Shown: piece by piece, positions 36,401 through 39,400 of the stretch | Numbering within the stretch: position 1 is the stretch's first letter | How the letters are laid out: each line of letters opens with the position of its first letter | Assembly (NCBI RefSeq): GCF_055900595.2 | Contig: NZ_CM148325.1 | Direction: 5' to 3' (one strand) | Length of the DNA stretch: 64,000 nucleotides | Program-made: the position numbers

Positions 36401-39400
36401 GGTTGATGATCTCTAAGCGCTGGTTCGAGCCTGCAGATATCCGGCAGAAACATTACTCCACACTACTACACCAGATCCTGGCTATTACTGCACAATGGGG
36501 AGGTGTTCGTGCCGATCAACTCTGGTCACAACTTTGCCAGACAGGTCCGTTCCGGAATGTGGATATAAATGACTTTAAAAGTCTGCTTAAACATATGGGG
36601 ACATGTGGCCTGCTCAGTCAACTAGCCAGCGGTGAAATAGTTGTCGGGGCTGAGGGGGAGAAGCTGACTAATCACTACACGTTTTATGCCGTATTCAATA
36701 CACCTGAGGAGTTTCGCATTGTAACGGGAAACCGAACTCTTGGCACAGTGCCTGTAGACTCCCCACTTTTGCCGGAGCAGCACATCATCTTCGGCGGACG
36801 GCGCTGGAAAGTGACAGAGATCGAGGTTGAAAAAAAGGTTATCTATGTTGAGGCGACTAAAGGCGGTCAGCCACCACTATTCAGTGGTAGCGGGATGTCT
36901 GTTCATGATGTTGTTCGCCAGGAGATGCTCGCTATCTACAGGGAAAATGATTACCGTATCGCGGTAGGCAACAAGAGAGTCGATTATGCTGATGCCGCAG
37001 CCAGAAGCCTCTTTGCGGAAGGAAGTGACAACTTCCAACGCTACAATCTACACAATGACTGTTTTATTGCCAGTGGTCAGAACTGCTACGTGATCCCGTG
37101 GATGGGGGATAAAATTGTCAATACAATTACGTCCCTGCTTATACGTTGTGGCTTTAAAGCCAGTTCATTTGCAGGTGTGATAGAGGTAGAGGACTCAGGC
37201 GTTGCCTCTGTCCAGCGTGTACTTAAGAAAATGCTATTGTCGGGGTTACCTTCAGAGTTTGAGCTTGCTGCAGTTGTTCCTGACAAGTATCTGGATAAAT
37301 ATGACGAGTATTTACCAGAGACTTTGCTTGCTAAAGGGTATGGGGCACAGGCGTATGATATAGAAGGAACGTGCACCTGGCTGCAGAAACACCTTCAGTA
37401 GACTGGATATGTAGTCAGGGTATAAATAACTTATTTATACCCTGATTTTTTTACTTCCCGGTGGACTTACTTGGCTTTAGTCCCGGAGTGTTGCCAGGAG
37501 TATCTTTATTATCTCGTCGGCGTTGATCTGGTTTTCCTGTCGATTTAGCAATTGGTTTTGGACCAGGTTTAAGACCCATGATAGTTATCCTTTTGAGATG
37601 TAAGAGGGAAGCCCTCAACATTGGTATATTGGATACTGAGAAATTTTTCAATGGGAGTGATAAACGGCCGAATGATTAACTCGATATTGTGATCAACGTC
37701 TGTTTTTTGCACACTGTAGACTGACTCTTGGAGCAGAAGGTTGCTCTGAGCGAGGAATGGACAGTTACACTCATCACCAACGCCAATAGCCTCATTACGC
37801 GTATAAAGCTGTATTAATCATTGGGGAACAGTTTAATGCGGGATTTTCGACTTATGGACTTGATTCAGGTGTCAAAATTAAAATGAGCAGTGTAAGGACA
37901 GACAAGTTCATTAGGTATGGTTTTGCGGTTGTGGCGATAGTTGCCATACTCATTACTACTATCACAACCCCCAATCCCACACCTTATCAATATATAGTTT
38001 ACCGAATAGTTCTGGCTCTGGCTGCCGGATGTATTGGTGCAGTTCTGCCTGGTTTCCTTGAAGTAAAATTTAATGGGTGGTTAAGAGCATCTGGCGCAGT
38101 GGCGATCTTCGCTATAGTGTTTTTCATAAGCCCAGATTTGCTTCAACAAAATCCTGAATCTGCAAGTAAACCTGTACCGCCTACTGTGATTGATGCATAT
38201 GCCGTTAATAGTTCCAATCGCGACAGATACCTCGAATTATTTCGAACAGGACAGTTCGGTCAGCGGGACAAGCTGCGCATCGGTTGTGTTGAGTGGAGTG
38301 AATCATCGTGCGTGGCTGCTGGTAATTTTTTGCGATTGTTAAGCGAAGCTGGCTGGGAAATCGATTCTGACGCTGTATTCAGAATGCAACCATCCGTGCC
38401 AGTTGAGGGGGTATCGATTGTAAGCCGTGGCGATGATCTGGTCGGTTTGCCAAAAGTACCACCCCACATGGGCCGTTGGAGTCGATCAGACATTAGTTAT
38501 GAAATTTTGACAGCGGCATTTAAATTGATGGGAGTTCCGGTTTATTTTTCCAGTGACCCGACATTACAACCAGGTACTACCGGAGTGTACTTTGGACCGA
38601 AACCGAAACTGGATGCACCAGTCATGCAAAAAGATGAGAATGTGCGACGTGAGCTTCTCCGCTACGTCGGTTTGGGAATGACTATTCAGCGAGCCTGCTC
38701 TCAGCAGCCCGTCGAACTTTGTGGGGGTGAAATCTTTTCCTGGGAAACGTCGGTATCTTCGTTCCTAAGGCAGCAGAGATTCAACTCCGATGCCGTAAAC
38801 AGATGGCTTGCCTTGCCGCAGGTTAATGCGGCTTCGGCAACTGCAGACATGAAAATAAAGCTAGATTTGTTAATGTCATTTGTTCTGGGCATCGAGTAAC
38901 TATACCTCTTGCGAGGATGATTGAGCGTCTAATGGACCAGCTTAGCCGTTAGCGCTATTTGTTTACGTAAGCCTGTGGAATCCAACTAGTGCTTCTACGA
39001 TGCGTTGTTTGGTGAAAAAAAAGTGTTGAAGCACTGGTTTTAGACAACTAAAGCCACGATTTGCTCATGCGTCGAAAATGTAGTCGTCTACTGTGTAGCA
39101 CGGAGGCGATATTCGTACGCTTACACTTGCCGATAGGCCACTGGGGAGTGTTCTTGGCACTAAGCTGCCAGGCCCGAAGGTCTGCTATGAGCGAGGGGCT
39201 GACATTCCTATTGGCATTCGGTGTGAGTTATCGGGGGCGGTCATGCGGCATACTTCCGATACAGGCGTTTCCAGCTCTGCCTGTTTCAGGGTTATATTAA
39301 TCTGCTTTAGAATTAATCGTGGCTTTAGCATCTGCACATCGTGCTGGAGAAACCTGAGTGAACTAAATCATATTCCCTTTCTTCAGCTAATCAATTGATA

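What the first reader, a model, noticed from the sequence alone, without database searches (positions are those of the whole stretch)
37451..37576. Small lysine/proline-rich ORF antisense to the operon terminator region
A 42-codon minus-strand ORF (MGLKPGPKPIAKSTGKPDQRRRDNKDTPGNTPGLKPSKSTGK) with an AAAGGA-like RBS sits between the Shango-like operon and the membrane-protein gene. Its low complexity and basic composition are unusual; it may be a small protein or spurious.
Basis: seen in the sequence. Interest (0 to 1): 0.2.

Follow-up and report, generated by a model that had tools for sequence, protein, structure and literature searches.

The report
Widespread unannotated 42-residue basic protein gene
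The small ORF is a real, independently expressed gene for a 42-residue, strongly basic, disordered protein that is almost unchanged across hundreds of bacterial species on plasmids and genomic islands, yet has no family, name or known function.

Summary
The ORF exists as described. Its true span with the stop codon is 37451-37579, minus strand, so the finding's end coordinate is 3 nt short. As an ORF it is unremarkable: the window holds 239 ATG-ORFs of 42 codons or more.

It is nonetheless a genuine gene.
- The same 40-46-residue peptide, always starting at this ATG, occurs in at least 567 species-representative genomes. These span alpha-, beta- and gamma-Proteobacteria, Leptospira and Bacteroidota.
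- It is also in 1424 PLSDB plasmids and 855 of 5426 complete E. coli genomes.
- Synonymous sites are saturated (pS 0.73) while pN is 0.069.
- Flanking DNA is unrelated between lineages.

RefSeq either omits it or, in about 550 E. coli genomes, extends it to a 107-residue "hypothetical protein". That extension is non-coding: it shows no codon periodicity, has indels and stops in other lineages, and is frameshifted in this window.

The gene carries its own promoter-like site (sigma-32-like), a 5' hairpin, an AAGGA Shine-Dalgarno and a 3' hairpin shared with sngC.

In Enterobacterales it travels with Shango. It also occurs widely without Shango, so it is not a Shango component.

No Pfam, NCBIfam, PHROG, PADLOC, PDB or literature match was found. 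Function is inferred only: a stress-induced, hydrophilin-like polycation that binds nucleic acid or the ribosome.

The parts
37451..37579 (-). 42-codon protein-coding gene (ATG 37579-37577, TAA 37453-37451) encoding MGLKPGPKPIAKSTGKPDQRRRDNKDTPGNTPGLKPSKSTGK
   Evidence: ORF and translation. Same peptide from the same Met in at least 567 species genomes and 1424 plasmids. pS 0.73 against pN 0.069, and codon-position entropy 8.8/6.6/49.5. All three opposite-strand frames carry stops in the window.
37588..37592 (-). Shine-Dalgarno sequence AAGGA, 8 nt upstream of the ATG
   Evidence: Read. AAGGA or GGAG at the same distance in nearly all proteobacterial homologues; absent in the two Bacteroidota copies.
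37604..37616 (-). 5'-UTR inverted repeat / hairpin GAGGG-CUU-CCCUC
   Evidence: Present at the same place in gamma-type lineages with variants GAGAG/CTCTC and GAGG/CCTC. 88.5% of cells paired, but only weak covariation. Forms in the MFE fold of the transcript.
37626..37633 (-). -10-like element TCCAATAT (sigma-32 type CCCCATNT). An overlapping sigma-70 reading, TATACC at 37623-37628, lacks the final T.
   Evidence: Two-block PWM built from 20 published sigma-32 sites (PMC3168786 Table 1). Window score 10.6, above the 99th percentile (10.1) of 645 control upstream regions. The site has the same position (-41 to -46 from the ATG) in about 30 loci.
37646..37652 (-). -35-like element ATTGAAA (consensus CTTGAAA), 12 nt upstream of the -10-like element
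   Evidence: (C/A)TTGA(A/T)A is conserved in Enterobacterales, Aeromonas, Vibrio, Shewanella, Psychrobacter, Pseudomonas and Undibacterium copies, although BLAST sees no upstream homology between these groups.
37413..37447 (.). 16-bp hairpin immediately 3' of the small gene (3 nt after its stop). With its T-run it also serves as the intrinsic terminator of sngC on the + strand.
   Evidence: terminator scan; fold. The hairpin stays with the small gene in a locus that lacks Shango (L023; homology extends about +35 nt past the stop).
37580..37713 (-). Conserved non-coding upstream block of the Enterobacterales module. It holds the promoter, the hairpin and the SD, and is annotated in other E. coli genomes as the N-terminal 65 residues of a 107-residue protein. 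Homology to those genomes ends at about 37713. A 1-nt insertion in the run at 37591-37594 breaks the annotated frame here.
   Evidence: the 107-residue annotation, the insertion and the homology break; entropy 0.65/0.59/0.60 per codon position, 19 gapped columns, and stops in the extension in 8 of 10 lineages.

Best explanation
SHOWN. The ORF is a bona fide, monocistronic, protein-coding gene for a 42-residue polycationic, intrinsically disordered protein. It belongs to a tight family of 40-46 residues with the consensus M-x-L-KPGPKPIAKSTGKPDQRRRDNK-x-TPGNTP-x-LKPSKS plus a K/S-rich tail. The family is under very strong purifying selection. It is carried in the flexible genome (plasmids, genomic islands, cassette arrays) of many bacterial phyla. 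Its unit is small: promoter region, 5' hairpin, SD, ORF and 3' hairpin, about 300 bp in Enterobacterales. It has no universal partner gene. In Enterobacterales it is inherited as a block with the Shango operon, convergent with it and sharing the hairpin. It is not a Shango component.

INFERRED, about 40% likely. Transcription starts from a heat-shock type (RpoH / sigma-32) promoter, so the protein would be made under proteotoxic stress.

INFERRED, about 30-35% likely. The protein meets the hydrophilin criteria and has net charge +8 without a fold. It would therefore act in extended form by binding a conserved polyanionic host target (ribosome/rRNA, or DNA), in the manner of small basic stress proteins such as RMF or Sra. 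This would benefit the mobile element or its host during stress.

The confidence of 0.8 applies to the SHOWN part.
For: - Reading frame: 86 of 86 distinct homologues are open from the same ATG, and the length is 40-46 codons in most.
- Selection: summed entropy by codon position is 8.8/6.6/49.5. Mean pairwise pS is 0.73 (saturated) against pN 0.069. dN/dS is 0.01-0.09 where dS can be computed.
- Flanks: between lineages, DNA homology stops within about 15 nt of the ORF. The N-terminal extensions made by gene callers are unrelated between genera.
- Translation signals: ATG plus an SD in nearly all copies, with no SD in Bacteroidota, as expected for that phylum.
- Residence: ORF GC3 tracks host GC (r = 0.54).
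- Autonomy: among 89 loci the only recurrent neighbour is SngC (14 loci, all Enterobacterales). Other neighbours are diverse.
- Independence from Shango: many E. coli genomes keep the ORF with only a short remnant of sngC. 1424 plasmids carry the ORF against 723 carrying SngC.
- Promoter: the sigma-32 PWM scores above the control 99th percentile in about 30 loci, at a fixed distance from the ATG. Consensus sequences come from PMC4263515 and PMC3168786.
- Disorder and hydrophilin character: AlphaFold mean pLDDT 65 with no fold; Gly 14%, GRAVY -1.64; criteria from PMC7448490.
Against: - There is no expression, proteomic or phenotype evidence of any kind.
- The promoter call rests on a PWM only. 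The window's site (10.6) scores below every training site (14.5 or more). The closely related ESY002-type E. coli copy scores 1.2. The alpha/beta-proteobacterial copies have a different upstream region with no hit. A sigma-70 reading (TTGAAA-N17-TATACC) is not excluded.
- Covariation support for the 5' hairpin is weak.
- The 3' hairpin has no U-tract on the small gene's strand.
- The proposed target (ribosome or nucleic acid) rests only on composition and analogy. No sequence similarity to RMF, Sra or any solved structure was found.
Confidence: 0.8

Rival explanations
1. Remnant of a pseudogene. The ORF would be the 3' third of a 107-residue gene (RefSeq WP_001564033.1 and relatives) that in this window has lost its 5' end and acquired a frameshift.
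For: About 550 E. coli genomes annotate a 324-bp gene over the homologous DNA. Relative to them, the window has a +1 insertion just upstream of the internal ATG, and the homology breaks at about 37713.
Against: The 65-codon extension is open only in that one E. coli lineage. It has stops in 8 of 10 Enterobacterales lineages, 19 gapped columns and flat codon-position entropy (0.65/0.59/0.60). The 42 codons have no gaps and 0.06/0.04/0.62. Outside Enterobacterales the upstream sequence is unrelated, yet the peptide still starts at the same Met. The conserved promoter, hairpin and SD lie inside the supposed extension.
Confidence: 0.03
2. Leader or arrest peptide. Translation of the ORF, whose stop lies 3 nt before a strong hairpin, would control read-through of that hairpin. 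In this window that would generate antisense RNA into the 3' end of sngC.
For: The stop codon lies 3-10 nt from a stable hairpin in several lineages. The motif KPGPKP is proline-rich. The ORF is convergent with sngC at about 50 bp in 14 loci.
Against: There is no conserved downstream gene, and neighbours are often convergent and unrelated. The whole N-terminal 36 residues are conserved, while the C-terminal residues nearest the stop are the most variable in sequence and length. That is the reverse of known arrest peptides (established knowledge of SecM, TnaC and SpeFL).
Confidence: 0.07
3. Accessory or regulatory component of the Shango defence system.
For: The window's operon is SngA/SngB/SngC. 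The ORF lies 47-65 bp downstream of SngC and convergent with it, sharing the hairpin, in most of the 14 Shango-linked loci. These are from distinct Enterobacterales species and include Klebsiella IncF plasmids. In E. coli, 800 genomes carry the sngC 3' end and 855 carry the ORF.
Against: In those loci DNA homology runs through the whole block, so the linkage reflects common descent rather than repeated association. 75 of 89 loci have no Shango. E. coli SF-166-type genomes keep the ORF with only a 93-bp sngC remnant. 1424 plasmids carry the ORF against 723 carrying SngC. The ORF is on the opposite strand with its own promoter. PADLOC has no model for it.
Confidence: 0.07
4. Toxin of an unannotated type I toxin-antitoxin (addiction) module on mobile elements.
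For: It is small, usually unannotated, plasmid-enriched and monocistronic, with structured 5' and 3' ends. It sits beside type II TA genes on small plasmids.
Against: Most known type I toxins are hydrophobic membrane peptides. This peptide has GRAVY -1.64 and no hydrophobic stretch. No conserved antisense promoter or RNA was found, and Rfam gave no match.
Confidence: 0.04
5. Not a protein: the conservation would reflect a DNA site or an RNA gene, or the ORF would be a chance ORF.
For: ORFs of this length are common (239 in the window). PGAP leaves it unannotated in 247 identical E. coli copies.
Against: The substitutions are three-periodic and synonymous, with saturated dS. Start, stop and SD are conserved. 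Opposite-strand frames are open in only 10-18 of 86 copies. No Rfam family matches.
Confidence: 0.01

Closest known systems
Hydrophilins / small basic stress proteins of E. coli (RMF, and Sra/RpsV from my own knowledge)
   Same: Very small (42 against about 45-55 residues), basic, glycine-rich, highly hydrophilic and without a stable fold. It meets both published hydrophilin criteria: hydrophilicity index above 1.0 and Gly above 6% (PMC7448490; values). It has a stress-type promoter-like site.
   Different: No detectable sequence similarity to any Pfam or NCBIfam family or any PDB chain. It is encoded on mobile DNA with a patchy distribution rather than in the core genome. Ribosome binding is untested.
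Shango defence system (SngA/SngB/SngC)
   Same: It is physically adjacent, sharing the hairpin at 37413-37447, and is co-inherited as one block in many Enterobacterales.
   Different: It lies on the opposite strand with its own promoter. It is found in 75 of 89 loci without Shango, and Shango occurs without it. No PADLOC model exists.
Regulatory leader / arrest peptides (SecM, TnaC, SpeFL; own knowledge)
   Same: A short conserved ORF that ends just before a stable hairpin.
   Different: No conserved downstream gene. Conservation is highest in the N-terminal 36 residues and lowest at the C-terminus.
Plasmid type I toxins (Hok-like; own knowledge)
   Same: Small, commonly unannotated, plasmid-borne and monocistronic with structured UTRs.
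   Different: Extremely hydrophilic and cationic, with no transmembrane segment and no antisense RNA found.
Proline-rich antimicrobial peptides and arginine-rich RNA-binding peptides (own knowledge)
   Same: Extended Pro/Lys/Arg-rich polycations of similar length. The RRR cluster is reminiscent of arginine-rich motifs.
   Different: Those are secreted animal peptides or parts of phage N proteins. No shared motif (YLPRP, PRP repeats) or homology was seen. This resemblance is from memory only and was not tested.

Membership tests
Any curated protein family (Pfam-A, NCBIfam, PHROGs, PADLOC) or solved structure | Significant profile-HMM match | tested here: not met
   0 families for the 42-residue peptide at E <= 10 in Pfam and NCBIfam, and none in PADLOC at E <= 0.001. 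One PHROG hit at E = 0.1 with unknown function. 0 PDB chains at E <= 10.
Shango system component | Consistent co-occurrence with sngABC, in the same operon | tested here: not met
   Convergent orientation with its own promoter-like site. SngC is a neighbour in 14 of 89 loci only. The ORF is retained where sngC is reduced to a 93-bp remnant.
Hydrophilins | Hydrophilicity index above 1.0 and glycine content above 6% (PMC7448490) | tested here: met
   GRAVY -1.64 (index 1.64); Gly 6/42 = 14%.
Hydrophilins | Induction by stress (osmotic, stationary-phase or heat) | not testable with these tools
   Only a sigma-32-like promoter prediction is available. There are no expression data.
Sigma-32 (RpoH) regulon | Promoter matching CTTGAA-N13-17-CCCCATNT close to the start codon (PMC4263515) | tested here: inconclusive
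   The window site is ATTGAAA-N12-TCCAATAT. Its PWM score of 10.6 exceeds the 99th percentile of controls but is below all 20 training sites. Stronger sites (15-19) occur in the Vibrio, Shewanella and Kosakonia types. The ESY002 type and the alpha/beta types have none.
Sigma-32 (RpoH) regulon | RpoH-dependent heat induction | not testable with these tools
   Needs transcript mapping or in vitro transcription.
Type I toxin-antitoxin | Hydrophobic, membrane-active peptide | tested here: not met
   No hydrophobic stretch; GRAVY -1.64; net charge +8.
Type I toxin-antitoxin | Cis- or trans-encoded antisense RNA antitoxin | not tested
   No Rfam hit near the gene. No dedicated search for antisense promoters was made.
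Leader / arrest peptide | Conserved regulated gene downstream on the same strand | tested here: not met
   Downstream neighbours are unrelated and often convergent.
RefSeq 107-residue 'hypothetical protein' (WP_001564033.1 type) | The full-length reading frame is conserved and evolves as coding sequence | tested here: not met
   The extension is open in only one E. coli lineage, with flat codon-position entropy and 19 gapped columns. It is frameshifted in the window.

The most novel reading that the evidence does not exclude
The peptide would be the founding member of an undescribed class of mobile-element-borne microproteins. In this reading it is a pan-bacterial, near-invariant 42-residue polycation, switched on by the heat-shock sigma factor. 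It docks in extended form onto a universally conserved machine (ribosome, DnaK or DNA) and so re-tunes host physiology for the benefit of plasmids and islands. That universal target would explain why its sequence is conserved at 74-100% identity from E. coli to Rhizobium, Leptospira and Bacteroidota while everything around it changes.
Probability: 0.25. Interest if true: 0.85.

Novelty: new variant of a known kind. Interest (0 to 1): 0.6.

Why it matters
Small proteins are systematically missed or mis-annotated, and this is a striking case. The gene is present in about 16% of complete E. coli genomes, about 2% of all PLSDB plasmids (1009 Klebsiella plasmid records) and hundreds of species across phyla. 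It is under near-absolute purifying selection, yet it has no name, family or paper.

RefSeq treats it inconsistently: absent, 42 residues, or a spurious 107-residue form.

Such conservation in a disordered peptide implies a specific and very conserved interaction partner. Finding that partner could reveal a new way in which mobile elements interact with core cell machinery or with stress responses.

There is also a practical point. The gene sits next to many defence systems, so it will be co-cloned with them (for example with Shango) without being noticed.

Tried and rejected
1. I first adopted the pseudogene-remnant reading from the RefSeq 107-residue annotation. I rejected it after the homologue search and the codon-position test.
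2. Rfam searches of the region and of 12 related loci gave nothing at or next to the gene.
3. Pfam, NCBIfam, PHROGs, PADLOC and a PDB profile search gave no family.
4. A profile search of 1.84 billion representative proteins found 239 hits, and every one of the 150 listed is short (164 residues or fewer). No larger protein carrying the sequence as a domain was seen.
5. Two "ribosomal protein S1" members of one 90% cluster looked like a Rosetta-stone fusion. They do not contain the peptide and are a clustering artefact.
6. The ParC-like fusion P0099 is a single 5-kb sewage-metagenome contig with a weak ParC match, so it is not informative.
7. Neighbour enrichment by BLAST clustering, Pfam and PADLOC on 128 neighbours found no universal partner.
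8. I considered an overlapping antisense ORF, because one antisense frame shares wobble positions with the sense frame. I rejected it.
9. Formal covariation of the 5' hairpin gave only weak support.
10. AlphaFold gave no fold, so no structure search was run.
11. A full-text search for four substrings of the peptide found 0 papers.
12. The Shango literature search listed 20 papers; none was opened, so it added nothing.
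Full report
**1. Observation**

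The window is an E. coli chromosomal island at the tRNA-Arg/yfdC site. It is 100% identical to strain AMSCJX02 and many others.

- The ATG is at 37579-37577 and the TAA stop at 37453-37451. With its stop the ORF spans 37451-37579, so the finding's end coordinate (37576) is 3 nt short.
- An AAGGA Shine-Dalgarno lies at 37592-37588.
- The upstream operon (31577-37401) is a Shango system: SngA E = 2e-101, SngB 1e-187, SngC 8e-278.
- sngC ends in a 16-bp hairpin plus T-run at 37413-37447. The small ORF's stop codon sits in that T-run.
- By length alone the ORF means nothing. The window has 239 ATG-ORFs of at least 42 codons.

**2. A false lead**

In about 550 other E. coli genomes the homologous DNA (about 92% identical) is annotated as the 3' third of a 107-residue hypothetical protein, for example WP_001564033.1. 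Relative to these genomes the window has two differences. It carries a 1-nt insertion just upstream of the internal ATG. It also loses homology at about 37713. This made the ORF look like a pseudogene remnant.

**3. Reversal**

I searched with the 107-residue sequence and recovered 150 proteins. They come from Raoultella, Klebsiella, Salmonella, Vibrio, Pseudomonas, Xanthomonas and Spongiibacteraceae.

- In all of them only the last 42 or so residues are conserved, starting exactly at the Met.
- The N-terminal extensions called by gene finders are unrelated between genera.

Of these, 567 were confirmed. The best 80 loci include the following:
- Enterobacterales, Vibrionales, Aeromonas, Shewanella and Psychrobacter;
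- Rhizobiales, Sphingomonas and Rhodobacterales;
- Burkholderiales;
- Xanthomonadales;
- Leptospira;
- two Bacteroidota.

An exact-sequence look-up adds Neisseria, Arcobacteraceae and Pasteurellaceae. It also shows that the peptide is deposited only as "hypothetical protein".

tblastn finds the peptide in 1424 PLSDB plasmid records. Klebsiella accounts for 1009 of them, and most listed rows have no annotated feature under the match. It is in only one phage record. It is in 855 of 5426 complete E. coli genomes.

**4. It is coding, and only the 42 codons are**

- Every homologue starts with ATG, and most run 40-46 codons. Nearly all proteobacterial copies have AAGGA or GGAG 6-10 nt upstream. The two Bacteroidota copies have no SD, as is usual in that phylum.
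- Across 83 distinct core DNA sequences, summed entropy by codon position is 8.8/6.6/49.5. Mean pairwise pS is 0.73, which is saturated, against pN 0.069.
- The opposite-strand frames are open in only 10-18 of 86 copies. All three have stops in the window.
- Between lineages, BLAST homology ends within about 15 nt of the ORF.
- Within Enterobacterales the 135 nt upstream (the supposed N-terminal extension) evolve equally at all three positions (0.65/0.59/0.60). That stretch has 19 gapped columns and carries stops in 8 of 10 lineages. The 42 codons show 0.06/0.04/0.62 with no gap.
- ORF GC3 tracks the GC content of the surrounding DNA (r = 0.54). This argues for long residence in different hosts rather than one recent sweep.

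The RefSeq 107-residue model is therefore an over-extension. The frameshift in the window lies in non-coding DNA.

**5. Anatomy of the gene**

Read on the minus strand, the window shows these elements in order:

| Element | Sequence | Coordinates |
|---|---|---|
| -35-like | ATTGAAA | 37652-37646 |
| spacer | 12 nt | |
| -10-like | TCCAATAT | 37633-37626 |
| spacer | 9 nt | |
| inverted repeat | GAGGGCTTCCCTC | 37616-37604 |
| spacer | 11 nt | |
| SD | AAGGA | 37592-37588 |
| spacer | 8 nt | |
| start | ATG | 37579-37577 |

The same order and spacing recur in Enterobacterales, Aeromonas, Vibrio, Shewanella, Psychrobacter and Undibacterium copies. This holds even though those upstream regions are otherwise not alignable by BLAST.

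*Promoter.* The C-rich -10 region and the CTTGAAA -35 match the sigma-32 consensus CTTGAA-N13-17-CCCCATNT (PMC4263515; PMC3168786). I built a two-block PWM from 20 published S. oneidensis sites.
- About 30 of 88 loci score above the 99th percentile of 645 control upstream regions.
- In all of these the site ends 41-46 nt before the ATG.
- The window scores 10.6. That is above the control 99th percentile of 10.1 but below all training sites.
- The ESY002-type E. coli copy and the alpha/beta-proteobacterial copies do not score.

*5' hairpin.* 88.5% of cells are paired, with a few compensatory changes. Formal covariation is weak.

*3' hairpin.* In the Shango-free Pantoea coffeiphila locus (L023), homology extends about 35 nt past the stop. 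The 3' hairpin therefore belongs to the small-gene module as well. On the small gene's strand it lacks a U-tract.

**6. Context**

Among 89 loci the only recurrent neighbour is SngC. It is convergent, mostly about 50-65 bp downstream, in 14 loci that are all Enterobacterales and include Klebsiella IncF plasmids.

In those loci homology runs through the whole Shango block, so the linkage is inherited rather than repeatedly re-created. Elsewhere the neighbours are diverse:
- superfamily-1 helicases;
- integrases;
- SIR2 and Macro-domain proteins;
- pRiA4b-ORF3 proteins;
- RelE/DUF6290 toxin-antitoxin pairs on 5.6-7 kb plasmids;
- an E2/E1/JAB system;
- a Vibrio integron-like cassette array.

E. 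coli SF-166-type genomes keep the small gene although sngC is reduced to a 93-bp remnant. SngC is on 723 plasmids against 1424 for the small gene. The gene is thus an autonomous passenger of the flexible genome. It is often found in defence-rich regions but is not a Shango component.

**7. What it may do**

- No family or structure matches it.
- A profile search of 1.84 billion representative proteins finds only short proteins, so it is not seen as a domain of anything larger.
- AlphaFold gives no fold (mean pLDDT 65).
- The peptide has net charge +8, pI 10.8, 14% Gly and GRAVY -1.64. It therefore meets the published hydrophilin criteria (PMC7448490). That class includes the E. coli ribosome modulation factor.
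- Nineteen columns are invariant in 25 diverse members, mostly in residues 1-36. The K/S-rich tail varies.

Near-invariance of a disordered polycation implies binding in extended form to a very conserved partner. My best inference is a stress-induced small protein, possibly under RpoH control, that binds the ribosome/rRNA or DNA. I put this at about one chance in three. Leader-peptide, type I toxin and Shango-accessory readings are each contradicted on a defining feature.

**8. Novelty**

The sequence is already in databases as a hypothetical protein. I found no curated family, and no paper containing four diagnostic substrings of the peptide. RefSeq annotation is inconsistent.

I rate it a new variant of a known kind, namely small basic hydrophilin-like proteins. 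It is unusual for its mobile-element location and its cross-phylum conservation. It could turn out to be something categorically new if its target is identified.

Noticed in passing
window 37569-37712 (-) and 37451-37651 (-): The 47-residue GTG ORF and the 66-residue TTG ORF listed here are by-products of the non-coding upstream block of the small gene. In ESY002-type E. coli they merge into the annotated 107-residue "hypothetical protein" (WP_001564033.1, WP_015953064.1, WP_001387054.1). That annotation appears to be an over-extension present in about 550 RefSeq genomes.
   Followed up: yes
window 37883-38899 (+) and 39543-41903 (+): A 338-residue predicted membrane protein with no Pfam or PADLOC hit is followed by a 786-residue protein with an HsdR-N-terminal (nuclease-like) domain and a weak AAA_22 match. 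The pair is kept together in other E. coli islands (for example CFSAN027346, L006). It sits in a defence-rich island and could be an undescribed two-gene defence candidate.
   Followed up: partly
L006 (E. coli CFSAN027346) about 5947-6000; same junction in O26 strains (H149-H151): An IS66-family element has inserted at the position of window 37464. It replaces Shango and the last 3 codons of the small gene, giving a 39-residue variant. Several other variants have their 3' end replaced at junctions (P0089 in Klebsiella with 163 contigs, P0053, P0055).
   Followed up: partly
L040-L050, L068, L080: about -360 to -110 relative to the small gene's ATG, opposite strand: The Vibrio/Photobacterium/Aliidiomarina/Dickeya-type module carries a divergently transcribed ORF of about 61 residues (MDRITSGPRRLSVEEIQELRRDMQESSAWAKAELKRRR...). 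It has a GGAG SD and mostly synonymous-looking variation, and no Pfam family. It is frameshifted in L047 and L060. It may be a lineage-specific partner gene.
   Followed up: partly
L021, L051, L056, L059, L061, L064, L066, L082, L088, L095: +1 to about +150 after the stop, and up to about -530 upstream: Alpha- and beta-proteobacterial copies share conserved non-coding flanks. The 3' region holds a hairpin (CCTGCGCGAAATGCCGCGCGG) and a twice-repeated CACTTCTAC motif. There is also a 350-530-bp upstream block with no consistent ORF and no Rfam match.
   Followed up: no
L002 6458-9326 (E. coli ESY002) and equivalents in L003 and L004: In ESY002-type islands the small gene lies at the end of a same-strand cluster: PAPS-reductase (IbrA-like), IbrB-like protein, PerC-family regulator and a 214-residue hypothetical protein. 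In the window this cluster has been replaced beyond 37713.
   Followed up: no
P0121 (87 residues, metagenomic): A divergent member (MSYNLKPGTKRIAKSTGEPDKRQRDNK...) occurs as a tandem in-frame duplication of the whole peptide.
   Followed up: no
L040 10397-10470; L021 7772-7894; L059 7807-7930: Rfam hits several kb (about 1.7-4.4) from the small gene: PtaRNA1 (a plasmid-transferred antisense RNA antitoxin) in Vibrio salilacus, and the alphaproteobacterial sRNA ar14 in Agrobacterium and Rhizobium plasmid loci. They are consistent with a mobile-element setting.
   Followed up: no
cluster 4 (P0291, P0303): Two ribosomal protein S1 sequences of about 600 residues are filed in the same 90%-identity cluster as the 42-residue Pseudomonas peptide. 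They do not contain the peptide, so this is a clustering artefact in the protein collection.
   Followed up: yes
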